Translations under genes and position numbers: made by a program
Shown here: positions 18,734 to 60,105 of the stretch, in pieces
How the letters are laid out: every line of letters starts with the position of its first letter
Numbering within the stretch: position 1 is the first letter of the stretch
Notes under the pieces: model-generated
Told to the model about the DNA's origin: nothing
The model's input: the letters and a program-made list of their open reading frames with translations, nothing else
Databases searched by the model: none
Origin: Octopus vulgaris
Taxonomy: Eukaryota
Direction: 5' to 3'
NCBI GenBank assembly: GCA_951406725.2
Contig: OX597820.1
Span: 46,562,001-46,626,000, forward strand
DNA: 64,000 nt

Positions 18734-18942
18734 GAGTCATTTTCTTTTTGTGCCTTATAATTTAACACACTCACCGGTAAAATTTCCACTTATTTCTTAT
18801 TTTTATTTTCCTAAAATTTTCGTTGCGTCTTGCAACCTTTTCAATAGTGTAAAAGACTATTGAAAAGGTTGCAAGACACAACGAAAAGTGGAAATTTACC
18901 AGTGAGTGTGTTAAATTATAAGGCAGAAAAAGAAAATAACTC
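18734..18942. repeat. Inverted repeat with a deletion in the right arm
   Basis: …ttgcaaccttttcaatagt gtaaaag actattgaaaaggttgcaa…. Confidence 0.9.
18811..18847 (-). ncRNA. Hammerhead-like motif (UUGAAAA core)
   Basis: cta TTGAAAAG gttgc-aagac-gcaac GAA AATT T tag. Confidence 0.45.
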
Positions 18943-19281
18943 ATCGAAGGCCAGTCAGGCGGAACTGGCAACAGCCATGCTCAAATCATGTTTTTTATGT
19001 GTCACCTGTACAGGAGCCAGTCCAGCAGTACTAGCACCGACCTTGCTTGAATATTTTTTCTCATGCCACTCGTACAAGTGCCAGTAAGGTGACACTGGTA
19101 ACGATCATGCTCAAATAGTACTTTTTATGTGTCACTGGCACAGCAGCCAGTCAGCTGCCCTGGCAATGATCACGCTCAAATACACATGTATATTACAACT
19201 TTATACATTAAATGTACTCTCTCACACACATAAAACATGTATACAAACACACACAAAATGTATGTACACAGATACTGTGTG

Positions 19282-19317
<36 letters not shown>

Positions 19318-20785
19318 CATATTCATACACACATGTACATACATATACACACACACACACACTCGCACAAATGGTATTGGTATGGGGAAAATGGTTGAAT
19401 TAAATTTATTTCAAATGGCAAAGTTGAGAATCAGAATAGAGATTGTTTAAACAAGATATCAAAAATTCTACCCATAACAGACAGTCACAGGATGAATCAA
19501 AACACACATCATACTGAATAAAGACTTCCACCAAATCTATTTTTAACCTCCTTCATCAATTATTATTATCTCAGCTAAGACTGCGGAAATCCTGGAGTAG
19601 ATCCAGTGGAAATATACCCTAACTGTAGATGACACCAGATGGCTCAAACTGTGAATGCACTTTACTTAACACACTAATTGACATATACCCATTAGTCCAA
19701 AAAATTACATACAAATATGTGTGTGTGTATGTGTGTATAATGAGTATATAGTAATAAATTATCCAAGAGTGTACTGTACGAGCATGCAGTTATAATCTGG
19801 GTTCAGGCTAAAAGCATCGAGTCGTAAGGAGCACTTAGGATAACTTAGGGTGAGCAATACCCAATGTAATTTTTCCAATGGGTAAATCTTGGATTTGCTT
19901 CTCTGGAAGTACAATGAATATGGGGATTAGTACATCTGTATATTTTAAAATAATTTTTGCAGTCAATTATACAGCATATTTGGTTACAAAATGACTGAAA
20001 TATGTTTTTGCTGCATAGGGAATAAGTAATTGCATCTGCTTCTAGCTACTTTCAGCTATGCAATTTTATACATCACAGATAAGTGAGGGATAATTTAGTA
20101 TCCTCCACACAGATACGAGGTGTCTGAGTTTACACGGTAAAAGTCAGAATAATACCTAGTTTAACTTTTGACTAGCAATCAATATTCTCATTAAATCAAA
20201 CCATCTTGTATCAACGTATATAGGATACACAAACTGCAAATAATCTAAAACTCCATTATGCAGAAGAAATTCTTCATACCACATATTCTTTTATTCCTTT
20301 ACTTGTCTCAGTCATCTGACTGTGGCCATGCTAGAGCACCGCCTTAAAGGGTTTTAGTCAAAGAAATTAAGCCTAGTACTTATTCTATCAGCCTTGTTTG
20401 CTGAACTGCTAAGTTATGGGGACATAAACTGACCAGCGCCAGTTGTCAAGTGATGGCGAGGAGACAAACACAGACACATACACTTAAATACACAAACACA
20501 CACACACTCACACAACAGGCATCTTCCACTTTCCATCTATCAAATCCACTCACAAGGCTTTGGTCAGCCTGCAGCTATATAGTAAAAGACATTTGCCTAA
20601 GGTAACATGCAGTGGGACTGAACCTGGTACCATGTAGTTGGGAAGCAAACTTCTTACCACACAGCCACACCTGTACCATATATTTAATTAAATGTAATAA
20701 AATTTAATTTGATTGATGATCACCATCATTACTTAGTGGCTAGCTGTTGTATAAAACATTGAAAGATCATACACTCATAATCCAA

Positions 20786-21204
20786 CTAAAAATACACTTT
20801 GACCTACTTAAAGATCAAGGACTCTAATTTCTTGCTTAAATCTAAGGTCAGTGTGAGCTCAATCATATTTTTCTCTCAAAAGCCACACACAGTCTGCTTT
20901 GGACCACATCTGTAGAGAGATGTTGAATAAAGTTGCAAAGGCAAAAATAGCTGCATACGAATGCAATAGGTAGTTCTCTATGCTGCAGAAGCACGTGTCT
21001 ATCTGCAGCATAGAGAACTAGCTACTGCATTCGTATGCAGCTATTTTTGCCTATGCAACTTTATTCAACATCTCTCTACAGATGTGGTCCAAAGCAGACT
21101 GTGTGTAGCTTTTGAGAGAAAAATATGATTGAGCTCACACTGACCTTAGATTTAAGCAAGAAATTAGAGTCCTTGATCTTTAAGTAGGCCAAAGTGTATT
21201 TTAG
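20786..21204. repeat. Inverted repeat, ~200-bp arms, 12-nt loop
   Basis: Arms read directly as reverse complements with a few mismatches. Confidence 0.95.
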
Positions 21205-21289
21205 AACATGGTTGAGTCCATAAAATGGGATTTGACTACACCTCCATTTGGAGCACAGTTTAAGCTATCTTTTCGTGGAAGAAGATTTA

Positions 21290-21552
21290 TTTTCCTATAA
21301 CCTGTGTTAATTCTGTAACCCTTTAAAATGGAAGATAAGAAAGCTCATTTTTGGCATTTGATGCTTTGGGAACCAGACAAAACTTGCTGCAGCTCGGCTG
21401 GGATGTGTTACCCTACCCTCCATATTCACCAGATATTGCTCCTTCGGATTTCCACTTATTCAGGTCACTGCAGAATAGTCTTAATGGTAAAATTTCAATT
21501 CCTTAGATGGCATAAAAAGATACCTTGATGAATTCTTTGCCATGAAACCACC
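21290..21552 (+). mobile_element. Internally deleted mariner relic
   Basis: MEDKKAHFWHLML N-terminus fused to the P-PPYSPDIAPSDFHLFRSLQNSL motif. Confidence 0.7.
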
Positions 21553-22585
21553 TCAATTCTGGGAATTGATATTATCATTATTATCGCTGTTTTCCCCTGT
21601 GATGGGGATGGGGGTGTCGTTCTCATTGACAGAGCTACCATTATTCATGTCTATGCCAGTGTGTCTGTCAGGGGCGGTGCTGCTTCTGTTGGTGCTGTGG
21701 CTGATATAGTTTGGTCTGACACTGCTGGAATGAGAGCTATCAGTTGGTATGTTGTCCTGTCTACTATTTATAAAGTTGGTGTTGGAGGCAACACCACTTT
21801 TGTTAATGCTAGTGATGGTGACGGTGCCATCAGGGATGTAGTGGGAACTGTTAATGTTGCTTTTGTTAATATCGGTAAGGCTGTTCACTGTGATGGAGGT
21901 GGGGATGGTGGTAGTGATGTTGGCTCTGTTGTTGGTCCTGCCTTTGTGTCTACAGCTACTATGACTGCTATGGTTCCTGCCGATGGAACTGGCCAGGTTC
22001 GCCCATATCTCAGCCTTATAGATGACACCTTTGGTTTGGCAGCGGTCTTCTACTGAGCAACTGTTGTGGATCCTGCATGAACAACCTGCCTTTTCCCATT
22101 GCTTACGGGTACTAACTAAGATACTCTTAATGTTAGGGGCACAGCTAAACAAGACCCTAACATTGTGCTTGTTGAAAATGGGAGCATACTTATGGGAGTT
22201 AGTAAAGTGTTTGTCTATTAACTTAAGGGAAAATCTACCCACGAACATTATAGTGTTAAGGGAGAAGGGTTTAGGCAAACCAAATTGTATTCCTGTGGTG
22301 TTTCCTTCTGAAGTTGTTGGGTCCTGTCAGAACTGAGGAAGGTTATTGTAAAGGATGCATTTCCTATTATATATTATGTAAACCTGAAACGTTCATATTA
22401 AATGATTTCAAAATATCATTATTTGATTTGTTTGATTTCATTATTACAATTTATGTATTAGGAGCCAGTCTAGCTGGTCTAGACTCCACTTATCTTAATA
22501 CTCTAACAAAAATTTGGAGTAGTTCATTATATTTGACAGGAGTCAAAAATTCTGGTACCATGCACTTCTTTGGTATAACATGAAA
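21553..22585 (-). mobile_element. Penelope-like retroelement fragment (end of RT, thumb, Cys linker, start of GIY-YIG)
   Basis: PFSLN…VGRFSLKLIDKHF…IFNKHNVRVLFSCAPNIKSIL…CSCR…C…C…GVIYKA matches the PLE RT-endonuclease linker pattern. Confidence 0.75.
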
Positions 22586-23561
22586 TGTGTGTGTGTGTAT
22601 ATTTATTCCAAAACTGCAAGTGGACTGTTGGTGATTTTTTCCTCCGTCATCCTTTTCTTTTGGACTTTCCTATGTCTCCTGTTTCTGAAGCAGAGCTATG
22701 CTTGAAACATAGAACAACTACTCTTTCTTTCCTTCTCTGAGCATCTTATTAATACTTTGCATGTACCATGTCCTCACATTGTTGTTTGTTTCTTGTCTGT
22801 CTTTTTTACTCTGATTTTTATTAATTATATATATAGATATATATATTTTTTTATACACACACACAAACACATACACACACACACAGACATTGGTCAACCA
22901 GGGGCTACAGTGAAAGATATTTACCCAAGGTACTACACTGCATGCTTGAAACCAAAAACCATGTGGTTGCAAAGCAGGCTTCTTAACCACACAGCCATGC
23001 ATGCACCTTTGCGTGCTTGTGTGTGTGTGTGCGCGCGTGTGTGTCTGTCCATCTGTGTCAGTGTGTATATGTGTGTGCATGCATGTGTGCATTCATGCAT
23101 ATGCATCTGTTGTGTGTGTGTGTGCATGCTTGTGTGTACATGTATGTGTGTATGGGTGTGTGTGTGTGTGTGTGCGAGTATCTAGATGAACAGATTTTAG
23201 ATCATTAACCCTTTCCACGGGAGATTGGAAACAAATGAAGCTCCTTGTATGATGGTGATGCTTGCTTACAAATAATTGATTTGTACAATGACAATGGATA
23301 TTGCAATAAAGTAATTTGGAGAGCAGAATAAAGCTGGTAGTGTGAAGATGAGAATGATGATGATGATGCTGATGCTGATGATGATGAGGATGATGACGAT
23401 GACAATGATGATGAAGATGATGATGATAAAGATGATGATGATAATAACGATGACGACAATGATGATGATGATGATGATGATGATGCTGACGACAACGAGG
23501 ATAATGAGAAGTAGGATGGTTATCATGGGAAATGATGAGTGAGAAAGATTTCAACTCTGAC

Positions 23562-23747
23562 CTCTGATGCAGTCAGCACTTCAAGAATTTTGTCTTCTAT
23601 CTCTTTCAGCAGTCTTTTGTTCTCAGATCCCTGCACAATCAGCTCGTTCTTCTTCTCCTCTAATTTTGGTTTTTCCTTTGCTGCCACAATACCCAATAGC
23701 TGGTCTTGTAGTCCTTGTGGTGTGATCATAAAGTTTAGCATGCATAC
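23562..23747 (-). CDS. DNAH3: Dynein heavy chain exon, AAA5/strut
   Basis: VCMLNFMITPQGLQDQLLGIVAAKEKPKLEEKKNELIVQGSENKRLLKEIEDKILEVLTASE. Confidence 0.93.
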
Positions 23748-24216
23748 CTGTAAGAAATAGCATTGGATTATTACCATGTAACAATATACATGCATGGATA
23801 CACCTTTACATACAAATACATATATACACAATAGGTGCAGGAGTGGCTGTGTGGTAAGTAGCTTGATTACTAACCACATGGTTCTGGGTTCAGTCCTATT
23901 TCATGACACCTTGGGCAAGTGTCATCTATTATAGCATCAGGCCATCCAAAGCCTTGTGAGTAGATTTGGCAGACAGAAACTGTAAAGAAGCCTGTCGTAT
24001 TTATATGCATATGTGTATGTCTGTGTGTCTGTTTGTTCCCCCACCATTGCTTTACAACTGATGCTGGTGTGTTTATGTCTCTGTAACTTAGCAGTTCAGC
24101 AAAAGAGACCGAGAGAATAAGCACTAGGTTTACAAAGAATAAATCCTGGGATCAGTTTGTTCGACTAAAGGTGGTGCTCCAGCAAGGCTGCAGTCAATAA
24201 ATAAAAGAATATATAT

Positions 24217-24990
24217 ACATGGTCTGATCAATAAGTATCCCAACGGTTGCCATAGTAAGCACATGGAGTGAAGTCACTTGGTACAGATTGACCTTAGACT
24301 CTGCAGTTCATGCACACTGAGTTTTAACATTCCAGCTTAGGTCCGCTGTTTACAGCAGTGCTTAGAAGGAATGTGTGTTGTGTGTGATCATTGCATTGAC
24401 CATGACAGAGAAAGTTGAGCAGAGAATCTGCATTAAATTATGCCAAAAGCTTGGTGATACCTACTCAGAGGCCTATGCAAAGTTTTCAAAAAGTTTTCAT
24501 CGTTCTTGATGCAATCAAGATCTTGTGCAATTGAAACCCTGAGTGTCTTTTTGATCAGCTGAAAGCAGTTTTGGCACAAAACTTGGCAGATATGCGTCTC
24601 ATACCAAAATCTTCAGTGATAATGAACTGAACTGTAACTAATCTGCACATCCTCTGATAACACATGGATGGTGATTCAATGATCTCTCCTCACAGCTGCA
24701 TGCACATTTGCAATGTTTTTCTTAGTTCTGCTGGTTGCAGGTATCCTAGGATGTTTGTCAATATCAACATTCCTTTGGCCATCTTGGAAACGTCTGAACC
24801 ACTTGTACACTTGTGTGCGACTCATACACTCCTCTCCATACACTTTCTGGAACTTTTCATAGGCCTCTGAGCAGGTGTCGCCATAACAACTTTCTCTGTC
24901 ATGGTCAATGCGACAATCACACGCTATACACCTTCCTTTCAAGCACTTCTGTAAACAGCAGAAATGAGCTAGAATGTTAAAACTTAGTGA
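24217..24990. mobile_element. Mariner relic with two oppositely oriented 5' segments
   Basis: MTEKVEQRICIKLCQKLG on +; SEAYEKFQKVYGEECMSRTQVYKWFRRF helix-turn-helix on -. Confidence 0.7.
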
Positions 24991-25507
24991 AGGGTACTAG
25001 TTAGCACCAACATAGCAAGAAATAAGAGTCAAAACAACTCATATCCATATATTAATGCTTGTATTACTAAGGGCTTAACTACTGAACTTTGTATCTTTGA
25101 CCTTTACATTATCGAAACAAAAGGATTAAATCCAATAATATTAAAAATAACAAAAATACTGTCACATCTTGTACATACTAACAAAAGAGAAAAGCTATAC
25201 ACATGTATTCAAAGTTCTACATACATGAATAAATTCTAAATGATAAAAATTTTCTCCAAAACACCTTTCCATAACAATCAAATAAAAATCTAATTATTAC
25301 CCCTCTCAAACCCACACACCTAAGATGATTTTAACTCAACAGAGACTATATAAAGGCAAGACTAAATCTGATGCATCACTGTTTAACAATGACTTAGCAG
25401 ACAAAAACTTCGAAGTCTCTATCAATAACATTCTTGTATAAGAATAATAAATATATATACACACACAGACACACACACACATACATACACACAGAAATAG
25501 AAAGAGA

Positions 25508-25772
25508 GGCGGCGAGCTGGCAGAAACGTTAGCAAAGGCAGCGAGCTGGCAGAATCGTTAGCACGCCGGGTGAAATGCTTAGCAGTATTTCGTCAGCCGT
25601 TACATTCTGAGTTCAAATTCCGCTGAGGTTGACTTTGCCTTTCATCCTTTCAGGGTCAATAAAATAAGTACCAGTTATGCACTGGGGTTGATATAATCGA
25701 CTTAATCTATTTGTCTGTCCTTGTTTGCCCCCTCTGTGTGTAGCCCCTTGTGGACAGTAAAGAAATAAGAAA
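25508..25772 (+). mobile_element. tRNA-derived SINE with duplicated head; same family at 31227-31467(-), 45250-45990 and 61615-62030 (several copies in AAT tracts), 59474-59696
   Basis: ggcggcgagctggcagaa occurs twice, followed by the family body. Confidence 0.8.
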
Positions 25773-26400
25773 TAGAAAGAGAGAGAGAAACAGACACAGA
25801 ATTTAAGATGAAAGGATGGATAGATATGAATTAAAATATTGTTAAAGATTGTGAAATTAATCATCATCAGCATCATCATCATTTGACATCCGTTTTCCAT
25901 GCAGGAATGGGTTGAACAGTTTGACATACATAGAGCAGGCTAGCAGGGAGCCGTCCAGACTCCAACTGTCTGTTGTGGCATGGTTTCTATGGCGGGATGC
26001 CCTTCCTAACGCCAATCACTTAGCAGAATGCGTTAGGTGCTTTTTACATGCCACTGGCACAGATGCATTTACGTAGCACTGGCACAGGCATGTTAATGCA
26101 GCACTGACATAGGCACTTTTTAAGCGACATCAGCACTTAGGGCTGTATGTGTAGAAGACAGTGATTTTTACCTAGCTTGACACATCTTATCAAGTACAAC
26201 AAATCACCACATCTCCCAGTCGATTGTCATATCCTCAATGAGGCCCAGTGTCAGAAGATCCTTTCTTACTACTTAGTCCCACGTCTTCCTGGGTCTACCT
26301 CTTTCACAAGTACCCTCCACAATTAGTGCTTGGCACTTCTAAAAGACAAACAAATGCCAAGGGAATAGAAGGAAACCAATAAAAGCAATAGACAAATTAC

Positions 26401-26708
26401 CTTGACAGAAATTTCCGGCAAATAATGTGGGTTCCTTAGCCGTGTCGTAATATAGAGGCGGAAGTACGGCGAGTACTCAATCAGGTTGTCTCCAAGGCGC
26501 ATGTACTCCACACCTTGTTGTTTGAAGGTTGATTTTTGTAGCACTGGCTCGAGCAGAGGATCAAGCTCTTCACCAACGTTCTCCAGCAACAGAGGTAACC
26601 CAAACTGGATGCAGTTCTCCAATGCGCGCACATAGTTACTGTCAGACAACTTGATGACAGCCAGTTTGTTGGCTTTCTCCATGTTTTTTATCCACTTATT
26701 AGCTTGTC
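26401..26708 (-). CDS. DNAH3: Dynein heavy chain exon, AAA5
   Basis: GQANKWIKNMEKANKLAVIKLSDSNYVRALENCIQFGLPLLLENVGEELDP...LYITTRLRNPHYLPEISVK. Confidence 0.94.
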
Positions 26709-26894
26709 CTGAAAGTGAATCAAGTACAACCAAGCACATCAATGCAATAATATAGCATAAAAAGACACACAAAGAAAAACACATGTGTAATGTAAAATAA
26801 CCCTTCAGTTTCAAAAAGGGGATGTTGGTGTTTAGCCCTAGATTCATTAAATGAAGTAGATAAAAAACCTCTTTCTTTCTGGATAGAATACTAA

Positions 26895-27286
26895 TCTATA
26901 TATATATAAAGCTGAAGTTGTCTGTGTGTGGCAGGTTTGGTAGCCTTCAACTAACACTATTGCCTTCAAAACCCTACAGCGCAAGTTGACCAAAATTGAG
27001 AGTATGATAGAAGAAGGCTTGCTCTTCATTCCGTAGAAGAAAAAGTTCAAATCGGACCATGTTAACACCAAAAATTATTTACATAAAAAAGGTGCTATTT
27101 TTCTATGAAAATCCCTATTTTTTATGATTTTTTGACTGCTGTGTCACCATTTTTCGGTGTATTTCAACCAGAAAAATGTTCACTTAAAGAGAATAACAAG
27201 TTACATAAAGCAAAATTTTTACTTTTCAAAAATTCCAATTCTAAAGGGTCAAAACAAACCCGAGCAACGCCGGGCGATACTGCTAG
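26895..27286 (+). mobile_element. Non-autonomous Helitron
   Basis: 5' TC, subterminal GC hairpin cccgagcaacgccggg, 3' CTAG; inserted between A and T with no TSD. Confidence 0.8.
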
Positions 27287-27907
27287 TATATAATATAATC
27301 GTAATATCATGCACAAAATACCTATTTAACAGTTCAAGCTGAACAGTAACCATATCAAACCTCATTAGTCAATGGGCAACAGAAAAAAGAAAAAGCACAC
27401 TGTCCTTTCTCACGCATTCTTCAGGTAGGGTTGTTTTAAGTCATTTAGACAGATTTATTCAAATTGGACCACTCACCAAGAGAGGACTCTGCACACACAC
27501 TCAAGCAGAGGACATATGATGAATTTTTAGTATATCATTGGGGCAAATGACGAAGCCTCAAATCCTTGATGCTTTTTGGCTGGAACTGGCATACTTCATG
27601 AGACATAAAACATCAATTTTCAGCATTTGTAGAGTAGAGGACCTCACTAACAATTCTTTAATTGGGCCCTGCACATCCTAGCATCTGGCCCTGCTTCAGA
27701 TTACATAATTACAAAAAAAGAAAACCAGTATAGGTGGACCAATCTAACACTATTCTAACAACTGTAGCCTGAAATTTAAAGGAATTACAAAGTACTAGTT
27801 AGACAAGTGATTGACATGCCTGCCCTCATCTAACCAGCTCAGTGTGATAAAGCAATAAGCATCTGCTCCTTTATGTGACTAGGGGCATTACATAAGATCC
27901 AACATAC

Positions 27908-28109
27908 CTTGTGGATCAATCATAAGAGGCCATCTTCGTGACTTAGAGGTGATAATAGCATTATCAATACTGAAGTTATCTGCAGGAAGCCCTGCTATCT
28001 GCCACTCGCGAATCTTCACCTGGTCACCAAGACAGGTATTGAAGGAAAAGTCTGGGGAACAAGGAATATTTTTCTCTTGACACAGTTCCACCCACTCTTT
28101 TATGATAGT
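27908..28109 (-). CDS. DNAH3: Dynein heavy chain exon, start of AAA5
   Basis: TIIKEWVELCQEKNIPCSPDFSFNTCLGDQVKIREWQIAGLPADNFSIDNAIITSKSRRWPLMIDPQ; cag/gtatg. Confidence 0.93.
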
Positions 28110-28659
28110 CTGCAAAATAAAAGCATGTTGCATATATGTAACAAACAAACTACAGATGTCTGACATACTGTTGATATTGCTATAAAAAAATAAATGCGCC
28201 CTTTTTAAAGCCTAGCCAGATTCATGGGCCTGGTTTCCCGGTTTCTATGGCATATGTGTTCCCTAGCTGGACGAGACGCCAGTCCATCGCAGCGTTACTC
28301 ATTTTTTCCAGCTGAGTGGACTGGAGCAACATAAGATGAAGTGTTTTGCTCAAGAACACAACGCATCGCCAGGGTCCAGGAATCAAAACCACAATCTTAC
28401 GATCATGGTGCTGACACCCTAACCACTAAGCCATGCGCCTCCACTGATATTGTTATAGTGTAACATTAATGATTGTCTACAAAATAAAAGAATGTTGCAA
28501 ACATGTATCATACAAACTAAAGACTTTTGACACACTGCTGACGTTACAGTGTAATGCATACAACAGATAGAAGTTAATCTGTACCACACAATGTAGATAT
28601 GTTTATAGTGTAACACATTCTCTCTTTTGAGTTGCAGTGTAACGCACATGAAAAATATA

Positions 28660-29172
28660 CTGTAAATCCTTGAGTATAATCCGCATTTTTTCCCCAAAAT
28701 TTAAAGGTCAAAATCCCTAGTGCGTACTATATACGAGGTTAAAAATGAAAATTATTTTCTAAACGATGTCCGAGACTCTATTTGCTGTCCGGCAACGTTT
28801 ATTCAGACGCATTTTGTGACGTCGGGCGCAAAAATACCTTAAGCTAAGCCTGAAAGCAATGAAGTCATAAAAGAATCATCCATAACTTGCAGTAAGCAAC
28901 ATTTATTAAACGTTATTACTGTTATTTCTTTATTTTCTGCAAACAAAATGCACAAAAATGCTACACGTTTGCATTATGTTATATATACAATAATAATAAA
29001 GGACATTACCATATATATTTTTTCACAAACCAAGGACGTTATCTAGACCTCCTTGACTCAAGTTAGAGAAGGGGTGTGTATTATACACAAGGTTTAGGTT
29101 TTCCAGAGGTACAGCCCCCAAAAATCCCCTGCGTATTATACTCAAAGGTGGACTATACTCGAGGATTTACAG
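28660..29172. mobile_element. pogo/Tigger-type MITE, inverted copy
   Basis: Same TIRs; TA target duplication on both sides. Confidence 0.85.
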
Positions 29173-29801
29173 TATGTTATATTGTAACATACACTGTATG
29201 CTACAGAGTCATATAATACTATAACATCCAATGCTAAAATATTTACTGTGTAATTTTCTTTCAGTGCCGATTGACTGGCTCCTGTACTGGTGACATGTAA
29301 AAAGTACCCACTACACTCTCAGAGTGGTTGGTGTTAGGAATGGCATCCAGCTGTAGAAACCTTGCCAAATCAGATTGGAGCCAGGTGCAGCCTCCTGGCT
29401 TGCCAGTCCTCAGTCAAACCATCCAACCCATACCAGCATGGAAAGTGGATGTTAAACGATGATGATAATGATGATGATAGGTACAGTGTCATGGAGATAT
29501 ATGGTTTACAGTGTAACTGTGCATTGTATCAATAATAAGGCGAAACACAAACACATCTTTTATCTTTCTTTTGTATTTTACTAGTTTCAGTCATCAGACT
29601 GTGGCCATGCTGAGGCACCACCTTGAAGAATTTTAGTCAAATGAATCGACATGAACACATCAGTACCTAAACACATACATACACAGCAACTCTCAAATAC
29701 TCACGCCTACCCTATCATACACACACAAACACAATTTTCTGATGGAAAACAAGGCAAGACAAACAAGTGCAAACATCGATGATATTAAACTCAGGACTCA
29801 C

Positions 29802-30062
29802 TTGTCTGAAATCTACAGTAAAAGCACCAAGATATGCAACTACACCAGATGCAAGCAGAACATCTCCAGTAATGCAATCATACAATTCTCCCAGTCCTTT
29901 AGCAGCTTTTGTCCAACGGTCTTTCTCTCCCCCTAGACCACCAATCAGCTGTTCAGCCCGGTCCAGTTTCTTGGAACAGATATCAATGTTGTCTTCAAGT
30001 TCTTTCTTTTTCTGGGTCATTGCTTCAAATTTATCATTCAATGCTTGTAGTTTATCTGCAAC
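29802..30062 (-). CDS. DNAH3: Dynein heavy chain exon, end of stalk
   Basis: VADKLQALNDKFEAM...KLDRAEQLIGGLGGEKDRW...GDVLLASGVVAYLGAFTVDFRQ; tag/gtgag. Confidence 0.93.
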
Positions 30063-47815: not shown

Positions 47816-47867
<52 letters not shown>

Positions 47868-47973: not shown

Positions 47974-48007
<34 letters not shown>

Positions 48008-49518: not shown

Positions 49519-49652
49519 TTCTCGGACATTAGACGAACTGATTCATGGAAATGTTTGCACATCACAACACATTCATGCTTGGTAGATTCATCCATTTCAG
49601 TTTCCTCCAGAAATTTGTTGGCAACCATCTCCAGAGCATCTGGAGGCCAAGC
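49519..49652 (-). CDS. DNAH3: Dynein heavy chain exon
   Basis: AWPPDALEMVANKFLEETEMDESTKHECVVMCKHFHESVRLMSE; tag/gtgag. Confidence 0.92.
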
Positions 49653-49894
49653 CTATAAAGATAAGCTCTTAATATATAGAACTGTTGGTGGCAAAACTGT
49701 TAGCATGTCAGACAAAATACTTAATGGCATTTCGTCAGTTTTTACTTTTGGAATTCAAATTCTGCCAGAGTTGACTTCACCTTTTATCCTTTCACAGTTG
49801 ATAAAATAAAGTACCCATTGAGCACTACATCATACAGCAGATTATAATAGTGTTGATGTATGTATGCCCCGGACATGTACACCCTGGACATGTA

Positions 49895-50550
49895 TGCTCA
49901 GGATGAAACATGGGCCCTTCACAATGATCCTGAGACTAAAGTCCAGCTGAAGCAATGGAAACATAACCCACCACCTCCAAAGAATGCTTGTTTCCAACCA
50001 TCAGCAGGCAAGGTGATGCTCACAGTCTTTTGGGACTAGCACATAGTAATGATGATGGATTTTCTGGCAAAGAGCACCACAAATATTATGTGTCTTTGTT
50101 GCAGAAATTGTGGGACACCATCAAAGCAGAGAGATATGGTATGCTGACCAAAGAAGTCTGCCTCCTCCAAGACAACACCCGAGTTCACAATGTGTGAGTT
50201 GCCCGGATGAAAGTGTACTCGTGCAGCTATGAAATCCTTCCTCATTCCCCTTACTTTCCCAACCTTGTACCATCTGACTTCCACCTCTTTTCAACCATGA
50301 AGTCTTTTTTGAAGGGGAAGCACTTTGCAGATGATGATGAACTTATTTCCAAGGTAAAGTCTTGGCTCCAGACATAACCTACTGACTTCTATAGACGAGG
50401 TCTTCACAGCTGCATAAAGTGATAGGATAAGTGTGTCACCATTGGTGGTGGTCATGCAGAGAAGGACTGAATAATTATGCCGTGTTTTGTTTATCCCAGT
50501 CCTTGGAAAGTGGGTCAGGGGAAATCTTTAATGAACACCCCCCCCATGTA
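49895..50550 (+). mobile_element. Mariner transposase 3' relic
   Basis: DETW…DPETK, KVMLTVFWD, LLQDN and ILPHSPYFPNLVPSDFHLF motifs, with frameshifts. Confidence 0.8.
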
Positions 50551-51104
50551 TGAGTATATATATAAGGTGAGTATATATGGATAAATTCTCAGGTACATTT
50601 CAGGTTTCAACTAACCACATCAAGTAGAAATAAACATAAATAATCACGTAGTATGAGCAATCCCACTGTAATTCTTTTGATGGATAACTCCAGGTTTACT
50701 TCCCTGGATTATGAATATTATCAGAAGTGTAAATTTCAAACAATTACAAAGAATATGGAGACTGGTAAATCTCAAAAGCAGTATAGCTGTGAAAACAGCA
50801 GAGAAAGATTGGGTCTTGTCTCTAAAATACCAACACATTCAGTGCCTTCAAAATTTGTTTATAAAATGTTCTTACATTTGTAAAGCTATTATTTAGCATT
50901 AAAATTGATGGTGATTGTTGGTTAGAGCACGCAGATAGTGTCTGATGGGTACGGGGTTTCACTCCCTGTAGCTGCCTACTGGCAACATTTTTCCATCTTC
51001 TAAGACTAAATACCCAATCTTTCTCTGCTGTTTTCACAGCTATACTGCATTTGAAATTTACTTTATAGCCTGTAAAATAAATAGATATGTATGTGTGTTT
51101 GTGT

Positions 51105-52290
51105 GTGTACAAGATGTCTGAGCAAAATTTGACAGTTTGCATAAAAGGAAAAGAAAACACAATATTCCATCCAAAAATAGAAGTATTTTTTTTTAAGTCA
51201 AAAAAATTCAACTAGACTATGGCTGAGATATAACAATTTACCCAATGTAGCCACCCTCATCTTACACCACAGCCTCAAGTTGGCTCTAGAACTTGCACAT
51301 ACAACCCTCACTGTGTCCTTGGGATGTTCGTTGAGCACTGCCTTGATCTTGATCACCAACTTGGGCTTGGTGTTGCAGGCAAAGCAGTTGGTGTCTTTCT
51401 AAACTATACTCCACACAGTAATTCATGAGGTTACAATCGAAGGAATTAGTAGGGCCAGAAACTGGTGATAGTGAAGTCATAGAAAGTCTTTGACAACCAC
51501 TTCTGACTTTTTCTGGAGGTATGGCAAGGAGTTAAATCCTTCCAGCAGCAGCTCTTTCAAGCCAAAGTCTGACTACAGTATTTAACAGCTTCATGTTGAT
51601 GTCTGAATTGAGCCTAAGGCCCTGTTGAAAGATATTGAATAATATGATGTCACCCTCACAGGAAACACACCCAAAGACCATCACAGTTTGGGGGAATTTA
51701 TTTTCATATGTGGGGCATCACATGGATTGTAGGCAAGCCACCAGTTGTTCTGAAGGTTATGCAACTGATCCTGGCAGAAGTTCTTTTCATCTGAGAAGTA
51801 GATTGTCACCAGCTCAACAGGATACCTCATTTTGTTTGGGAGCTTCTTTGCCTTCATCAAGCAGTTCTCCTTTGCCTTGGCTGTCAGAATTTGTCCCTTG
51901 TACCTCTTGTACAAATGGAAGCAAAGAGCCTCATTCAGAGCCTCCTTTATGATGGAGATGCTAGCAACCATCTATCTCACCAAATCCCAGATTCTCTTGC
52001 TTGGATCTTCCATCGTCTTGTTCTGCAGTTAATGGATGAATTCTGACAGTCAATGAATGAATGCCTGCTATGTCCCTTTTTGCTGCCCATGGCTTTGTAG
52101 TCTCCATTGCAGCTGTCACTGTCACATCTTACAGCCTCTATAGAGCATTGAGCAGCAGCAGTGATATTGACATTTTAATATTAGGCACAAACCACCATGA
52201 TACAGGTAACTCTTTTCTGATATTCTGATGGATTCCAGTCCTCCATGCCAGCTAACTTTTTCTCAGCTACAACTTTATGCTCACTAATGC
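51105..52290 (-). mobile_element. Tc1/mariner (maT-like) transposon relic
   Basis: IYFSDEKNF and a degenerate WPPxSPDLNP motif (PTNSFDCNL). Confidence 0.7.
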
Positions 52291-53343
52291 CATTAACTTT
52301 TCACCAATACATTAAGCTGTTCCTGACAAAAGATGTAAAAAAAAATCATCAAATTTATCTTGAATACCCTCTCTCTCTCTCTCTCTCTGTTTGTATTTTT
52401 ATGTGTATACACACTAGACACGCACACATACACACAGAGGTACAGCCTGCATGGTCTAGTAGTTAAGAGGCCCATTTTGCAATTCACAAGATCCAAGGTT
52501 CAATCTCATTGTGCAGCATCTTGAGCAAGTGTCTTTTGCTACTGTCTTGGGTCAACCTCAGCATTGTGAATGAAACAGGGTCAACAGGGAACTATGTAGA
52601 TGTTTGTTAGATGAATTGCTGCTGTAATTCAAAGGTCTACCCTAGTCACACACTGTTCCACACTGACTCTACTCGAGAATTACATTAAATAGTACACCAA
52701 GGCAGAAAGCTGGGCAAAATGCTTAGTGGTGCTTCGTCTGTCATCATATTCTGAGTTCAAATGCTGCCAGGGTCGACTTTGCTTTTCATCCTTTTGGGGC
52801 CGATATATCAAGTACCAGTTATACATTGGGGTCAATGTAATCGACTGGTCTCCTCACCCAAAATGTCGGGTCTTGTGCCTATAGAAGAAAGGATTAAATA
52901 GTACACCTGTCTGTAGAATACTCAGCCTCTTTATAAATTATTTCAATAAACTGATTGAATGGATGGATGGAGAGATGGATGGCATCAAAGGCTGCTCAGA
53001 AGAATGAATATTTTCCTATATTTGTATGTGCACATACACATAGTTGTATACTGGAAAGAGCATTAGTGAACTATATAAGGTGTGTTTGTGTATACGTCTG
53101 TCTGTCTCTCTCTCTTTGTCCATCTGTCTCTCTCTCCCTCTCTCCCCAAAGATGTGTGTGTGTGTGCTATAGACAACATCTACATCAGTGTTCTGTGTCA
53201 CATGTGAACATGTTTCTATGCACATATGTGTAGGTATGTGGATGCTTAAGAGAGAGCATGTCTGTAAGTGGATGTGTATATGCATGCATATCATACACAG
53301 AATCCCCAGCATTAGTTTATCATGAAAACGAATTGCAACTTAC

Positions 53344-53511
53344 CTTGAACCAATCAATGGTACAACAGTTTATCAATGATGGAAACATACGGAGACGATT
53401 GCGAAAAGCATCTCCGATGGGACTAAGAGTGAGGGCAACATGAAGGTTTACCTTCACTCGATCAATGAAGAAATTATACAGGGCCAATGGTGACGCATCT
53501 ATCTTTCTCCC
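53344..53511 (-). CDS. DNAH3: Dynein heavy chain exon, AAA4
   Basis: GRKIDASPLALYNFFIDRVKVNLHVALTLSPIGDAFRNRLRMFPSLINCCTIDWFK; cag/gtaag. Confidence 0.93.
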
Positions 53512-54984
53512 CTGTAAACAACAGCAAAAACAATAAAAATAATATTTAATTTTATCTTCATAGAAAGGAGGGTCTGAACAAGACTCTCTAGATCACTCAC
53601 CTTTGATTTCAAACTGGACAAATGGAAAACTAACATGTATTGGCATTTCATCTTGAAGAGTGACCAATCTGATTTAAAACTTAGGCAAGCAGAACCTTAT
53701 TAACATTTTCAAGTAGGCTGTGCTGGGAAAGGAAACTCTAACCAATATTCTTAATAGTTGCCAAAGCTACTCTGAAGTATCTCTGGTCCAAACAAAAAAA
53801 ATGTTTCCATTTTCTGTTATGATTTTTGGTTTCATCATTAGAATTTAGATGGGCTGAAAAGTGAACCACCAATGAGGGATTCAGTTTATAAATAACGGAT
53901 TTCTATAAAAATGTACAATCCACAAATTTTTAAGGATAAGATTGATAATACTGGTACTTATTTTATTAATCCCTAGAAAGGTGAAAAGGCAGAAAAATCT
54001 ATGTCAGGAGAACCATGAATTCCCTAATATGGTGGATATCTATTATAGACTAATTTCCTCTGAGAGTGAAAAAGTATTGACAGAATATAAATAACAAAGT
54101 CTTAATTCAGTTCTGTGTGCACAGATGATAATCAGGTGAGAGGGTATTTTAGGAAAGGACAGTTAGTACCAAGTGATGACAGTTAATTACTATTTAGATT
54201 CACCTCCTGACATACAGAAATTAAATTCAATCTATAAACTATTATGCATAATAATTATGCTATGGAACCAAAAGTGATCTTTTAAAGATATGCAGGCTGT
54301 AGTGTTGGGTTTGTTTTAAAATGGTAAATATTGTTGATTCTAATAAAGTGGAAATGATAAATATAATAACAAAATAAACTTAATTATTTATAGTTACAGC
54401 AAAACATGAATACTAAGCTAGTGTCAAAATACAATAGCATTTATATCATAACATACTACAACTTAACAACATAAGCACAGTGAATATCTCAACTGAAAAT
54501 CTATCACTATAAGCCTCAAGATAGCAAAGGAGAATGGGCACCAGCCAGCCCAAAGGTTGGGGTGGTCTGCATCTGCCTACCTTTGTTGCTATGGCATTGA
54601 GGTAGATCTGGCCACCTCCGTTAACAGGGACAAAACCAGGGTTTAAAACACTGGATGATGATGATGATGATGACAAGCAACATCTCACCATGTGAGCCAA
54701 TGAGGGAAGCCTATTTGTAGTTAAAAACCTTCTAGAAATAACAGCCAACACCCCTCAAAAACTTAAAAACGAAGGGAAACATTGGACAATGTAGTCGCCG
54801 ATAAGATAATCCATAGTGGAATGTCTTGAAACAAGGGGTCATCTTGAAATGGAGCAACTTGAAGCGAAATAACACCACTCCATCAACATCGTTACTGCAA
54901 GTAATAACACAACTACCACCATGACTCACACCACTGCAATCAACACTAGTACCACCAGTAAGTAATACAACAAAAACGGCTCAC

Positions 54985-55170
54985 CTCATGACGTGCAGCA
55001 CCCTGCATCTTCTCAATGATCTCAGCTTTCTCATCAGAAGCATAGAGATTGGGAACAGCTCCAGTGTTAAGAATCATACTGATATCTTCCATAAAACTTT
55101 CATCTTTGATTTGGTTGTCAGAGAAGAGAAACACATGAGGCTTGGCATTGCACCCTGTACGTAATAACAA
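54985..55170 (-). CDS. DNAH3: Dynein heavy chain exon, AAA4
   Basis: LLLRTGCNAKPHVFLFSDNQIKDESFMEDISMILNTGAVPNLYASDEKAEIIEKMQGAARHE; cag/gtgag. Confidence 0.92.
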
Positions 55171-56079
55171 CTGTAATAGTGGAAATTATAGTCAGCATGA
55201 TAAACAACAAAATGTAATTCAAGTAGCAAACAGTTGATAAAATTACATGAGAGCACGTACATAGTCGGGTGGTCGGCGACTAAACTGGCAACCCCACCAA
55301 GCTTGCTTGGTGAGGAGGGCGTTTATTGGACACCCTGTGGGATGAAAAACAAAACTCATCAAAGGGAAGAGGAACTCTTGAGAGTCAACGGCCATCTAAT
55401 AAATGTCTTAAAGTTGTATCATGCACGGGGACATAGAAATAATCGGACTGAATACCCGATCGCGCGGTTAAACCATTGGGAGTGAAGGACTCCTAGCCTT
55501 TGTTAGGGCATCCTTCTAGAAGGTAACTCAGGTAACTGGGATAACTCCGACATAAAACCTGCGGCTCGGTGGTTACCGATGATGTTGACTTGTTCTTCTT
55601 TTCGTATTATGGCTGCTGTTGCTTAGTGAGTGGGATTGACTCAGTGCACAGCCTTTCTTCACTTTAAAAAAATTTTCTTGCACAGGCATTGCATGATAAC
55701 AACATTGATTAAGCTTCGTGCAATGGCCATACTTGATAACGAGGAGGCAGCCACCATATATATATGTATGTATGTATATATATATATATAAATTTAAGTC
55801 ACAATATATGGATTCAACTTATTCAATGGTACTCATAAAAAAAGCTCCTTAATGTATTATTCTACAAAACATATAGAATATATAGTACAAGAGAAAAACA
55901 CTCTTTATGTTTTCCTTTTGTATTGTTATTTATAATTATATATATATATATCATCCGACCCATGCTAGCATGGAAAGCGGATGTTAAACGATGATGATAT
56001 ATATATATATATATATACATATATATATAACCCATGCTAGCATGGAGAACGGACGTTAAATGATGATGATATATATATA

Positions 56080-56979
56080 CAAGGGGGTACCCAAAAGAAA
56101 CCGGAATTTTGCAATATTAATTTATTCACTTCGTTTTACATGTTTACATTTTTATTGCCTTCAAAATATTCCCCATTTGAAGCAATGCATCAGAACTGAA
56201 GCATTTTCCACTGTTCAAAGCAATGCTGGAACTCTTGTGAAGTGATGCCTTTTAATGCCTCCATCATTTTCTTCACCTCTTCCACATCCACACATTCTAT
56301 AGCACCACCTTTTCTCACCTGTGATGGCCTTCAGAAAAAGGTCCGGATCAACTTCCAACTGCTCTTTCAGTTCATGACATGCATTCACTTGTGACTGCTA
56401 TCGATCTGCCATGAGCAAGCAAGTCACAAATTTTGTTGCAACTCTTTTCATTTGTAATTCCTAGCACAATATTCATTGGCAGGAGCTGCAGGACACATCA
56501 TTCATATCAACAAGTTCATCCATTATTTGGTGACTGCCTTCCAAGATCAGTTCAAGAATTTTCGTGCTTTCATTTGTTCAGGAGGTCGACAGTCATCCTG
56601 AATGAGGTTGGTCCTCAAATGACAAGTGACCATTCCCAAAGTGTCGAAACCACTTGTAAACTTGTATTATGCTCATGGCAGCATCCTTGTATGCTGTTTG
56701 AAGCATGACAGCTGTTTCAGGTGCTGTTTTCCTCAGCAGAAAACAGAATTTCAAAGAAGCACACTGTTCCCCGGTTTCAGTCATTGCAAAAATCAACAAA
56801 CACTGGGGAAGCACTGCAAAACAAAGATGCACCATGTGGCAGTACAACTTCATTGGACAATACTGGATGGCATGCTGATGCCTGAAGGTTGCACCAAGTG
56901 GCTTCTAGCGATGGAAGCCTGAACTACAATGGGTTTGTTCCACAGAGAACATTTCCTATTACCTTTGGGTACCCTCTTG
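56080..56979 (-). mobile_element. Mariner relic with both TIRs
   Basis: caagggggtacccaaaag…ctttgggtaccctcttg; EQCASLKFCFLLRKTAPETAVMLQTAY…QVYKWFRHF. Confidence 0.8.
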
Positions 56980-57462
56980 TGTGTGTGTATATCATTATCA
57001 TCATCATCATCTTTTAATGTCCGCTTTCCATGATGGCATGGGTTGGATGGTTTGGCTGAGGACTGGCAAGCCAGAAAGCTGCACCAGGCTTCAATCTGAT
57101 CTGAAAAGGTTTCTACAGCTGGATGCTCTTTCTAATGTCAACCACTCCAAGAGTGTAGTGGGTGCTTTTTATATACCACCAACACAGGGGCCAGTCAGGT
57201 GACATGCATCAACCGTGCTCGAATGGTGCTTTTTACATGCCACCAGCACAAGTGCCAGTCAGGAGGCATTGTGGCATCAGTCACACTCAAATGGTGTTTT
57301 CACATGCCACTGGCATGGGTATCAGTCAGAAGGCACTGGCATCTGACTGAGAGTGAAAGAAAGAACGAGTACATGTGTGTATGCATGTATGTAAGCATGC
57401 ACATGTGTGAATGATTCAGAAAAGAAAAAGTAAGAGATTGTGAGAAAGAGAGAGACAGAAAC

Positions 57463-57587
57463 CTTCTTCAAATCCTCCTTCCACTCATTATTAGTGTAAT
57501 TACGTGTTATCTCAATTTGGAAAAGGTCATATTCAGCCATGTGGCAAGCCAGCTTGGTCACACTCTGTCGACCACTTCCTCCAATAC
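57463..57587 (-). CDS. DNAH3: Dynein heavy chain exon, AAA4 P-loop
   Basis: [42 protein letters not shown]; AG/GT boundaries, in phase. Confidence 0.92.
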
Positions 57588-57891
57588 CTAGGTATAAAAA
57601 GAAACAAAAAAAAAAAACAGTACAGAATTGAGTAAGACACAGTTACAGATACAGAATGAATTATTATCCAAAGGATATGTATGCATTGCTCAATTACATA
57701 GATAACTAATCTGAAAACTTACATATCAAATGTACGTATGTGTGTGTGTATGTGTGTGTGTACGCACACGAGTATGTGTATGTATGTGCATGTGTGCATA
57801 TAGGGTGTTTGAAGTGGTGTACATATATTGTATATTAAGAAAAAGGAGGTCGTCAGAACTATCCAAAATTCTAACTGCCTTCTTTTTCTTA

Positions 57892-57936
<45 letters not shown>

Positions 57937-58411
57937 CTATATATAAATATATATATAGTATATACATATATATATATAAATATATATGTATATGTATATC
58001 TATATATATACATATTTATATATACTATATAACTAAGCTAAGAGCATTAGATTCCTTGGAAGAAAGCAGCGAATGTATATGAAAACAAGGATATAAAAAA
58101 ATGAAGAAATGTTACACAAATGCAAATAACAGGACATAACATCAGGTGTACATTTGCTGCTTTCTTCCAAGGAATCTAATGCTCTTAGCTTAGTTTTTCC
58201 TTGGGGCTGGCCAGATTGGAGCAATCTCGAGTATAACCACCTGAAATGGCAAAGATGATCTGGAACTCGTCTGATGAAAGAAAACTCCGACTGACCCATC
58301 CTTGTTTCCTTTGTATCGTCTGTCTGGATGTTTTGTGTTCTTCTCCCATTTTTATATGTTTTATATATAAAACTATAGTGGCGTACATACACTTTGGTCT
58401 CTTATATGTAA

Positions 58412-58461
<50 letters not shown>

Positions 58462-59124
58462 ATATATGACAAGCTTCATTCAGTTTTATCAAGATTTCAT
58501 TACTTAACAGCATGCACAAGGCTTCCTCAAGGCACAAGTCACATATATTATCTGGCATATGTGACTTGTGCCTTGAGGAAGCCTCGTGCATTCTGTTAAG
58601 TAATGAAAACTTAGTAAACAAGGGTGCTGATAAAATACCAAGATGTTGTCACCGTGCCAAATTTGCCTTTTCCATATACAACACAGTAGAATAATAATTA
58701 TAATTCAGCAAAATTTCTCCCTCTCTCCTTCCCCCTATCCATGAGTGCGTGAGCCTGGTTGCATTTCTATATGTACGTATGCATGCCAGTCCACATCTCT
58801 AGTATGCATGGATGTATGTATCTATGCATGTGTATATGTATATAGATGTAAATATGTGTGCACTTGTGTATGTAAATGCATGTGTATGTACGTGTGTACA
58901 TATATTTGTATATGTGTATGTATATGTGTATGTATGTAGGTGCACGTACATATCTATATATGTGTGAGTGTGAGTATATATGTATATATGCATATGTATA
59001 TATATATAAATATATAGGGGGAGAATTCACAAAAAAAAACAAACGAAGAAATATATATATGCATATATATATATATAAATTACTTAAATTACTTAAATTA
59101 TTTTGTCAGCATTTTCTTCATTTC

Positions 59125-59176
<52 letters not shown>

Positions 59177-60105
59177 ATCAAAATAAGCAACAGGATATCA
59201 AGTAGGGATGCAGTACGACTGTTTCAAGTGACTCCATTTAATTGAACAATGCAATCATTGCATCGTTTAAATGTAGTGCTATCCTCGGCTGCACAAATAT
59301 ATAAATAGAATTTTAACAAAGGTGTCTCGTTTATATAATTTTTCTCAAATATTTTAACAGAGCAAGAAGATGGAAGAAATTCATGTGCGTGCATGCGTGT
59401 GCGTAAATATATATATATATAAATGGCTATCTGTAGAGATGACAATGATAACATCAGCAATGACAAATTAAGAGGCTAGTTGGCAGAAACATTAGCATGC
59501 CGGGTGAAATGCTTAGTGGTATTTCGCTTGCCATTATGTTCTGAGTTCAAATTACTCCAAGGTCGACTTTATCTTTTCGGGGCTGATAAATTAAGTACCA
59601 GTTATGCCCTGGAGTCGATGTAATCGATTTCATCCCTTTGTTTGTCCTTGTTTGTCCCCTCTATTTTTAGCCCCTTGTGGGCAATAAAGAAATAAGAGGG
59701 GAAATGAGGATAGGTTCTAACACTGCAGAGATAAAAGTCGAAAAACCTTTATATATTCCAGGTGCAACGAAATGTACAATCAAAGAAATCTATATCTATG
59801 TAGATCCTGCTATCCAAATGGCAGGATCTATGTAGACACACTTTTCTTTGATTGTATCTCTCTGAAGATGGACCTTTGCACTTGAAATATATAAAAGCTT
59901 TTCAAGTTCCAATTCTGCATTATTAGCTTTCCTCACTTCCCCTTTTCATTTATCATTCCACTTCTGTACTTCAATGCTTCAAGCAAACTACAACACTCTT
60001 CTTTCAACAACAATAATGATTACAATAACTACCACAATGATAGTCATAATGATGATATCAGTGGTGGCATTATCAATATCAAATATGAAAAACCATAGAA
60101 CTTAC

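What the first reader, a model, noticed from the sequence alone, without database searches (positions are those of the whole stretch)
18734..59919. Candidate system: diverse fold-back elements carrying minimal hammerhead-ribozyme motifs at (TA)n sites
Seen: about ten inverted repeats whose arms are unrelated in sequence (18734, 20786, 33952, 34432, 36063, 42613, 50765, 58031, 58495, 59724), most beside (TA)n or (TG)n tracts. At least six have a shared pattern within, at the centre of, or next to them: (C/T)TGAN(G/A)A, a short hairpin, GAA, a self-complementary 4-8-mer (AATT, AGCGCT, ACTGGT, ATATAT, CACGTG), then an H base. Established: Penelope-like retroelements (PLEs) carry minimal type I hammerheads with palindromic stem III in their pseudo-LTRs, often acting as dimers, and PLE insertions often have inverted 5' pLTR copies. 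Inference: these are short non-coding PLE termini or retrozyme-like RNAs from many families. A ribozyme-defined RNA end plus fold-back during reverse transcription would then seed long dsRNA hairpins in introns. The structure is conserved while the sequence is not, so ordinary repeat masking would miss the link.
Basis: partly seen in the sequence, partly recalled or inferred. Interest (0 to 1): 0.75.

Follow-up and report, generated by a model that had tools for sequence, protein, structure and literature searches.

The report
Penelope retrotransposon stubs forming hairpins
These ten intronic hairpins in an octopus dynein gene are real; most are back-to-back pairs of short tail pieces that likely come from Penelope-type jumping genes, and six carry a motif predicted to be a self-cutting RNA, which is a known kind of repeat debris, and the motif does not sit where the hairpins fold, with one exception.

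Summary
All ten inverted repeats exist, in introns of a dynein heavy chain gene; each belongs to a dispersed repeat family. The 33952 family is the 3' end of a young Penelope-like element (PLE; 1312-aa RT plus GIY-YIG ORF). The 36063, 42613 and 58495 families also attach to PLE endonucleases. Family-level hammerhead (HHR) motifs are canonical in three families, core-variant in four and absent in three. A stricter descriptor on 800 kb gave 26 hits vs 0-2 shuffled. All 12 hits at fold-backs point outward, with cut sites 36-408 nt from the centre. So the centre is a variable 5'-truncation junction, not a ribozyme end. Outer ends fall at two fixed sites, often beside (TA)n. Only 20786 folds at its predicted cut. 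PLE minimal HHRs, U3-A8 cores, opposite-strand pairs, inverted 5' copies and tails are published. This scan has also noted the same layout before, in this genome and others. Modest additions: a U3-A8 majority, high extrapolated density, and a possible source of octopus dsRNA. Cleavage and editing are untested.

The parts
18655..18848 (-). 18734 family, main copy with one-sided tail; canonical U3-A8 minimal HHR at 18814-18844
   Evidence: U3-A8 core in 52 of 61 local copies; 1263 first-look candidates
18856..18942 (+). 18734 family, inverted 5'-truncated copy without tail, HHR partly deleted
20700..21202 (.). Old family; tail-to-tail palindrome, arms 20789-20989 and 21002-21202 (5 differences in 201); right side cut off by a very high-copy repeat, mariner-like by inspection
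20923..20999 (+). Decayed HHR-like motif (U3-A8 core with one extra base, long loop II, CACGTG palindrome); predicted cut after 20999, 2 nt before the second arm
   Evidence: similar motif in about a dozen of 19 family loci at 72-88% identity
33885..34185 (-). 33952 family: 3' end of a young EN+ PLE with an ~80-nt tail running into (TA)n; HHR-like motif with A9C at 34079-34112
34186..34419 (+). 33952 family: inverted copy ending at the short 3' end; HHR-like motif with A9C at 34259-34292
34432..34650 (.). 34432 family head-to-head pair with one-sided tail; the family's long-stem-II HHR variant lies about 190 nt upstream and is absent from this copy
36063..36308 (.). 36063 family pair; HHR-like motif with A13C and 2-bp stem I at 36157-36189 (minus strand); junction at the core start
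42470..42850 (.). 42613 family pair; U3-A8 minimal HHR at 42550-42597 (minus strand), outside the arms in the one-sided extension
50765..51065 (.). About 255-bp unit that occurs in tandem elsewhere, with a tRNA-like segment and a 53-bp inverted copy; no HHR found
58031..58400 (.). 58031 family pair (4110 first-look candidates); core-like 7-mer present but no HHR fold; no ORF link found
58485..58700 (.). Palindrome made of the C-terminal coding end of a PLE GIY-YIG endonuclease; no HHR here
59700..59940 (.). 59724 family pair; C3-G8 minimal HHR at 59862-59893 (+), decayed in this copy; core deleted from the left arm
299..57642 (-). Host gene: dynein heavy chain exons; nine elements lie between identified exons, and 59724 lies 5' of the last exon identified here
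   Evidence: 5 of 6 exon frames hit dynein Pfam domains

Best explanation
The ten hairpins are back-to-back pairs of repeat fragments; four families join Penelope-like retroelement coding sequence, the rest likely share that origin, and the pairs were likely made when both ends of a cut in AT-rich DNA primed reverse transcription and the two unfinished copies joined at their 5' ends. Shown: nine of ten are read as head-to-head with 3' ends outward (firm for 33952, 18734, 36063, 42613, 58495, 59724; inferred from tails or TA flanks for 34432, 50765, 58031). In two families tested the outer ends fall at two fixed sites and the centre is variable. The same layout holds for multi-kilobase ORF-containing copies. 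Inferred: the two outer ends are the two internal RT start sites, and joining uses microhomology. The hammerhead is a passenger of the element's 3' repeat. It is predicted to be weak, dimer- or protein-dependent, and sequestered inside long hairpins. It likely plays no part in forming the fold. When the host intron is transcribed the arms would pair as dsRNA.
For: 33952 family: all 6 extended long copies carry a head-to-head inverted copy, and one has an open 1312-aa frame. Its homologues include a 98%-identical Octopus vulgaris protein labelled RT-domain-containing, and relatives with PF00078 or PF01541. Inverted copies end at +119 to +130 from the predicted cut in 10 of 12, main copies at +206 to +215 in 28 of 29. 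18734 family: adjacent inverted copy in 29 of 48 loci, 23 of them ending at +94 to +103; main copies end near +160. Endonuclease upstream in the same sense for 36063 (L291, L299, L293) and 42613 (one locus, with an RT fragment hitting RVT_1 at 8.9e-08). 58495 is endonuclease coding sequence. Unbiased 800 kb: U3-A8 15, C3-G8 5, U3-G8 2, C3-A8 0 hits vs shuffle means 0.6, 0.1, 0.5, 0.1; 12 of 22 lie within 150 nt of a fold-back, which cover 7.8%. With the palindrome left free, 12 of 13 hits were palindromic. With stem I left free, 12 of 16 had 3 bp or more, vs 2 of 19 shuffled. Extended descriptor: 26 vs 0-2; 12 of 12 at fold-backs point outward, none within 10 nt of the centre. Fold-backs near (TA)5: 41 of 85 vs 27.4 +/- 4.1. 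Published: inverted 5'-truncated copy, tail and (TA)n bias (PMC8557442); both strands cut and extended, two internal RT starts, HHR mutants still insert (PMC11167929).
Against: No ORF link found for 20786, 34432, 50765, 58031 or 59724. Only one doubtful link for 18734 (L061). 20786 is tail-to-tail, with the turn 2 nt after its predicted cut, and its arms differ at 5 of 201 sites while the nearest other copies are 72-88% identical. No HHR in three families. Pfam gave no hit on the 1312-aa ORF itself, nor on a PLE-like frame at 21553-22326. Only 6 of 85 sampled fold-backs carry an intact HHR, so most sampled fold-backs are unclassified. Tails here are 60-85 nt, not the 30-40 nt reported. A few 18734 copies start within 3 nt of the cut. 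Twin priming was not observed directly.
Confidence: 0.8

Rival explanations
1. One reading: hammerhead cleavage defines an RNA end that snaps back and primes reverse transcription, making the hairpin.
For: 20786 turns 2 nt after its predicted cut, at a palindromic stem III. One short-read joint in the 33952 family lies at the cut position, among 15 shown of 53 scattered joints. A few 18734 copies start at -2 to +3.
Against: 0 of 12 sampled HHR hits have the cut within 10 nt of the centre and all point outward. 0 of 30 junction ends within 10 nt in 33952. 14 of 47 ends in 18734 cluster at -45 to -35, upstream of the ribozyme, against 2 within 2 nt of the cut. HHR mutants insert normally in vitro (PMC11167929). 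The 5' cleavage product ends in a cyclic phosphate, a poor primer (own knowledge).
Confidence: 0.08
2. The hairpins arose at the DNA level after insertion, by fold-back repair or replication template switching in AT-rich, fragile repeat DNA, and the HHR link is incidental.
For: Fits 20786: no near-identical source copy among 22 candidates, arms 98% alike, and only 1 of 18 other family loci shows a short local inversion. A short microhomology lies at its turn.
Against: In 33952 and 18734 the inverted copy ends at a family-fixed site and lacks the tail, with (TA)n outside. A DNA-level fold-back would copy flanking host DNA at random lengths. All 6 long copies show the same layout.
Confidence: 0.1
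3. They are MITEs or fold-back DNA transposons with terminal inverted repeats.
For: Short palindromes in TA context; the window holds a mariner-like element with 103-bp inverted ends at 24315-24989.
Against: Arm length and centre vary copy by copy, the arms are asymmetric (one tail), many copies have no inverted partner (19 of 48 in 18734), and long copies run into RT/GIY-YIG ORFs.
Confidence: 0.02

Closest known systems
Metazoan PLE minimal hammerheads (Cervera and de la Pena 2014, PMC4209133; read parts 1-2 of 4: abstract, results, discussion)
   Same: Minimal type I fold, short stem I, palindromic 15.2-16.2 region, extra base after A9, U3-A8 covariation, many unrelated families per genome, mostly in truncated PLEs, and pairs about 100-700 bp apart on opposite strands.
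   Different: U3-A8 is the majority here (15 vs 5; in Schistosoma about 1300 vs 2000). Extrapolated density is higher. A9C, A13C, extra-base and U4C long-stem-II family variants are not in the parts I read. The supplements were not read and may list them.
EN+ PLE insertion structure, Neptune/Nematis type (Craig et al. 2021, PMC8557442; passages)
   Same: 5' truncation, adjacent inverted 5'-truncated copy, tail on one end, (TA)n bias, CX2-5CxxC linker before a C-terminal GIY-YIG.
   Different: Tails 60-85 nt rather than 30-40 nt; long CA- or TA-rich 3' UTRs; clade not fixed by a tree here.
Anolis Poseidon element PAc in vitro (Frangieh et al. 2024, PMC11167929; parts 1-2 of 4)
   Same: Two RT start sites downstream of the HHR explain the tail; AT-rich target; both strands cut and extended; HHR dispensable for insertion.
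   Different: Different clade; the parts I read do not address how the inverted copy forms.
Metazoan non-LTR retrozymes (PMC7229834, passages; bioRxiv 10.64898/2026.07.22.740005, parts 1-2 of 5)
   Same: Short non-coding HHR-bearing repeats tied to PLEs.
   Different: Retrozymes are tandem monomers with an HHR per unit. The HHR-bearing families here are mostly inverted pairs and several join ORFs; the one tandem unit (50765) has no HHR found.

Membership tests
EN+ Penelope-like element | Single ORF with RT and C-terminal GIY-YIG endonuclease | tested here: met
   33952 family: 1312-aa open frame with RT and GIY-YIG motifs; homologues annotated RT/GIY-YIG. 42613: degenerate RT plus EN in one locus. 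36063 and 58495: EN only.
EN+ Penelope-like element | ORF link for the 20786, 34432, 50765, 58031, 59724 and 18734 families | tested here: inconclusive
   EN profile search over all held loci found none, except one doubtful 18734 copy; about 20 loci per family were held, most with 1.5-kb flanks.
EN+ Penelope-like element | Inverted 5'-truncated copy adjacent at the 5' end | tested here: met
   6 of 6 long 33952 copies; 29 of 48 18734 loci. Not met by 20786, which is tail-to-tail.
EN+ Penelope-like element | Tail extension on one end only | tested here: met
   Two fixed 3' ends in 33952 and 18734; seen by inspection in 34432.
EN+ Penelope-like element | (TA)n insertion bias | tested here: met
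   TA-rich tract at the 3' end of the 33952 copies printed; 41 of 85 sampled fold-backs near (TA)5 vs 27.4 +/- 4.1.
Neptune/Nematis clades | CX2-5CxxC linker before the endonuclease | tested here: met
   Seen in translations of L332 and L299; partly decayed in L308.
Neptune/Nematis clades | RT phylogeny with reference elements | not tested
   No named reference PLE set was on hand.
Minimal type I hammerhead | Canonical core with a paired 3-8 position in families 18734, 42613, 59724 | tested here: met
   Exact majority core in 52 of 61, 27 of 33 and 11 of 20 local copies.
Minimal type I hammerhead | Canonical core in families 33952, 36063, 20786, 34432 | tested here: not met
   A9C in 39 of 51; A13C in the five commonest variants (27 of 37); one extra core base; U4C in 2 of 4 copies of the 34432 family. 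They look like HHRs but fail the strict core of PMC3088659.
Minimal type I hammerhead | Any HHR in families 50765, 58031, 58495 | tested here: not met
   Standard, long-stem and any-order scans found nothing shared by more than 2 of about 20 copies.
Minimal type I hammerhead | Stems I, II and palindromic III with covariation across families | tested here: met
   Features left free were enriched. 11 of 12 pairs change on both sides in 10 descriptor-selected sequences (partly circular).
Minimal type I hammerhead | Self-cleavage after H17 | not testable with these tools
   Only assembled contigs were available. Co-folding gave the expected dimer for 1 of 6 motifs tried, none from the window.
Non-LTR retrozyme | Tandem monomers each with an HHR, no ORF | tested here: not met
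   HHR families are mostly inverted pairs and several join ORFs; the tandem 50765 unit lacks a detected HHR.
Non-LTR retrozyme | Circular RNA | not testable with these tools
   No raw RNA reads were offered.
MITE / fold-back DNA transposon | Fixed symmetric terminal inverted repeats | tested here: not met
   Variable centres and asymmetric ends.

The most novel reading that the evidence does not exclude
Head-to-head Penelope insertions are the main source of the unusually abundant, near-perfect local dsRNA in octopus pre-mRNAs that ADAR hyper-edits. Porath et al. 2017 (PMC5625713) measured that excess but had no repeat annotation for octopus. Scaling my sample gives roughly 2 x 10^5 non-SINE fold-backs and 5-10 x 10^4 intact-looking minimal hammerheads genome-wide, mostly with the U3-A8 core.
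Probability: 0.35. Interest if true: 0.6.

Novelty: new member of a known kind. Interest (0 to 1): 0.3.

Why it matters
The kind is known, so the finding mainly extends PLE hammerheads to octopus, for which my searches found no dedicated description. Three points have some use. The junction data separate two models and favour variable 5'-5' joining with two fixed outer ends over a ribozyme-defined fold. A young, 98-99% identical family with an open ORF carries an A9C core, a natural test of whether cleavage matters to transposition. And these insertions make ready-made long hairpins in introns of an animal with extreme A-to-I editing, which is testable with existing RNA reads.

Tried and rejected
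Rfam scan: no hammerhead among the listed matches; hits were microsatellite or miRNA-like noise. Covariance model from 10 motifs: in the window it recovered only the two families it was built from and missed 18734, so it adds little. Fossil A-to-G editing: none in the window's arms. The four biased family alignments among 528 did not hold up when re-aligned, and the two strongest of five one-sided fold-backs among 97 were microsatellite artefacts; the other three were weak and not checked. Arm homogenisation: the analysis was noisy, with few shared derived changes, so no evidence for general gene conversion. Cap-G signature at the 18734 5' pile-up: 3 of 9, inconclusive. Permuted hammerheads in 58031, 50765, 58495: nothing recurrent; the script is crude and did not recover the 59724 control. 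Single-motif folding: only the 18734 copy and L226 had z below -2; one of the nine inputs missed its motif. Expression: no RNA holder listed on record and only contigs, so no evidence either way. PDB sequence search and Pfam on the long ORF: nothing. 5' end mapping for 36063 on an unbiased set was not done; the 19 copies seen were selected with a query that includes the core. The fold-back count of 85 includes about 18 chance inverted SINE pairs and at least one microsatellite artefact, none removed before the counts.
Full report
Setting. The window is G000:C7:46562001-46626000 of a 2.8-Gb genome in 227 contigs. The retroelement protein recovered here is 98% identical to a public Octopus vulgaris protein, so the organism is very likely an octopus. 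Minus-strand frames hit dynein heavy chain domains in 5 of 6 tests; the elements lie between or 5' of these exons.

Observation. All ten inverted repeats exist. The 20786 centre is bridged by contigs from two other runs. The 18734 and 33952 elements are related; the other 44 pairs are not. Five of ten touch (TA)n directly and two more through a tail. Rfam listed no hammerhead.

Families. Each element is a dispersed family, with 22 to 4110 first-look candidates (lower bounds). The 33952 family is 98-99% identical between copies. [quoted passage not shown] Pfam missed it. It aligns weakly with an RVT_1-positive fragment, and its homologues carry RT and GIY-YIG annotations. All six extended copies have a head-to-head inverted copy; the window's 468-bp palindrome is the short form of that layout. 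The 36063 family follows an endonuclease fragment in L291, L299 and L293. The 42613 family follows RT plus endonuclease in one locus. 58495 is itself endonuclease coding sequence. No link was found for 20786, 34432, 50765, 58031 or 59724, and only a doubtful one for 18734.

Hammerheads. Family consensus gives canonical minimal type I motifs in 18734 and 42613 (U3-A8) and 59724 (C3-G8). Core variants occur in 33952 (A9C), 36063 (A13C, 2-bp stem I), 20786 (one extra core base, long loop II) and 34432 (long stem II, U4C in some copies, upstream of the window copy). None was found in 50765, 58031 or 58495. U3-A8, an insertion after A6 and a U-U mismatch at the base of stem II are natural variants in PMC3088659 (section 8 read); A9C and A13C are not named there. 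On 800 kb of unselected sequence (200 kb next to the window, 600 kb spread over 30 large contigs), a strict descriptor gave 15 U3-A8, 5 C3-G8, 2 U3-G8 and 0 C3-A8 hits against shuffle means of 0.6, 0.1, 0.5 and 0.1. Twelve of 22 lay within 150 nt of a fold-back, which cover 7.8%. Features left free were also enriched. An extended descriptor gave 26 hits vs 0-2. So the motif class is real and tied to fold-backs. Scaling gives 5-10 x 10^4 motifs genome-wide, an extrapolation from 0.03% of the genome with clustered hits. Only 6 of the 85 fold-backs carry an intact motif.

Where the fold is. All 12 sampled motifs at fold-backs point outward, with cuts 36-408 nt from the centre. In 33952, none of 30 junction ends is within 10 nt of the cut; outer ends fall near +126 (inverted copy) and +208 (main copy). 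In 18734, 14 of 47 ends cluster at -45 to -35, 2 lie within 2 nt of the cut, and only 3 extend beyond -45; outer ends fall near +100 and +160. The pile-up may be a transcription start: an initiator-like step has a DPE-like pentamer at +28 to +32 (consensus recalled, not tested), but the cap signature was inconclusive. In the 33952 hairpin both motifs are buried in a 234-bp stem. The exception is 20786: tail-to-tail, turning 2 nt after the predicted cut, arms differing at 5 of 201 sites, nearest relatives 72-88% identical. A cut-primed fold-back or a later DNA-level duplication could explain it; I favour the latter slightly because no source copy was found.

Mechanism. Shown: geometry, two fixed outer ends in two families, variable centre, TA bias, ORF links. 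From the literature: a PLE protein cuts and extends both strands of AT-rich DNA, starts at two internal RNA sites that define the tail, and inserts normally with a dead HHR (PMC11167929). Inferred: both DNA ends prime, both cDNAs stop early and join 5' to 5'.

What is known. PMC4209133 reports minimal HHRs, U3-A8 and opposite-strand pairs 100-700 bp apart. PMC8557442 reports inverted 5' copies, tails and (TA)n bias. PMC13282606 (main text read) reports 31 recently active PLE families in O. vulgaris; I saw no mention of ribozymes or palindromes in it. Searches for octopus with hammerhead, Penelope, palindrome or editing terms returned no paper on octopus PLE hammerheads; subscription papers and supplements were not seen and may hold such lists. 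PMC5625713 (passages) finds exceptional dsRNA potential and hyper-editing in octopus, leaves octopus out of its repeat analysis, and notes heavy editing of Penelope in lizard. Earlier notes of this scan describe the same head-to-head layout in this and other genomes, and fossil editing and permuted hammerheads elsewhere in this genome. I found neither of those two in these ten elements.

Verdict. Interest 0.3.

Noticed in passing
window 18845-18857 region and loci L333-L422: 5' ends of the 18734 family pile up about 44 nt upstream of the predicted cut, at an initiator-like step with a DPE-like pentamer 28-32 nt downstream inside stem-loop II; possibly an internal promoter overlapping the ribozyme.
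   Followed up: partly
window 50815-51065; L132:1589-1662: The 50765 unit has a tRNA-like segment (ARAGORN called a tRNA in 1 of 8 loci, on the minus strand), occurs in tandem and with inverted partial copies, and sits beside a remnant resembling the 20786 family at about 50655-50764.
   Followed up: partly
L065:740, 1225, 2547: A 485-bp tandem pair plus an inverted copy, each with a U4C long-stem-II hammerhead related to the 34432 family motif; retrozyme-like.
   Followed up: no
L226, L227, L238, L245: A family with a clean U3-A8 hammerhead (6-bp stem I, ACGCGT-type stem III) on both arms of fold-backs; co-folding gives the expected dimer. Best candidate for a cleavage assay.
   Followed up: partly
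L232, L243, L254, L288: C3-G8 hammerheads with 55-60-nt stem II and 8-nt palindromic stem III in four apparently unrelated repeats.
   Followed up: no
window 33850-33885: The 33952 insertion ends within about 35 nt of a dynein exon's predicted splice acceptor, placing a 234-bp stem about 100 nt upstream of it in the pre-mRNA.
   Followed up: no
window 21553-22326 (-): 257-codon frame whose first part resembles a PLE linker and endonuclease start, followed by a threonine-rich low-complexity run; no Pfam hit.
   Followed up: partly
window 24315-24989: Mariner-like element with 103-bp terminal inverted repeats and transposase-like remnants.
   Followed up: partly
   Followed up: no
L223:4652-9853: 5.2-kb inverted pair containing endonuclease fragments related to the 58495 family.
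   Followed up: no
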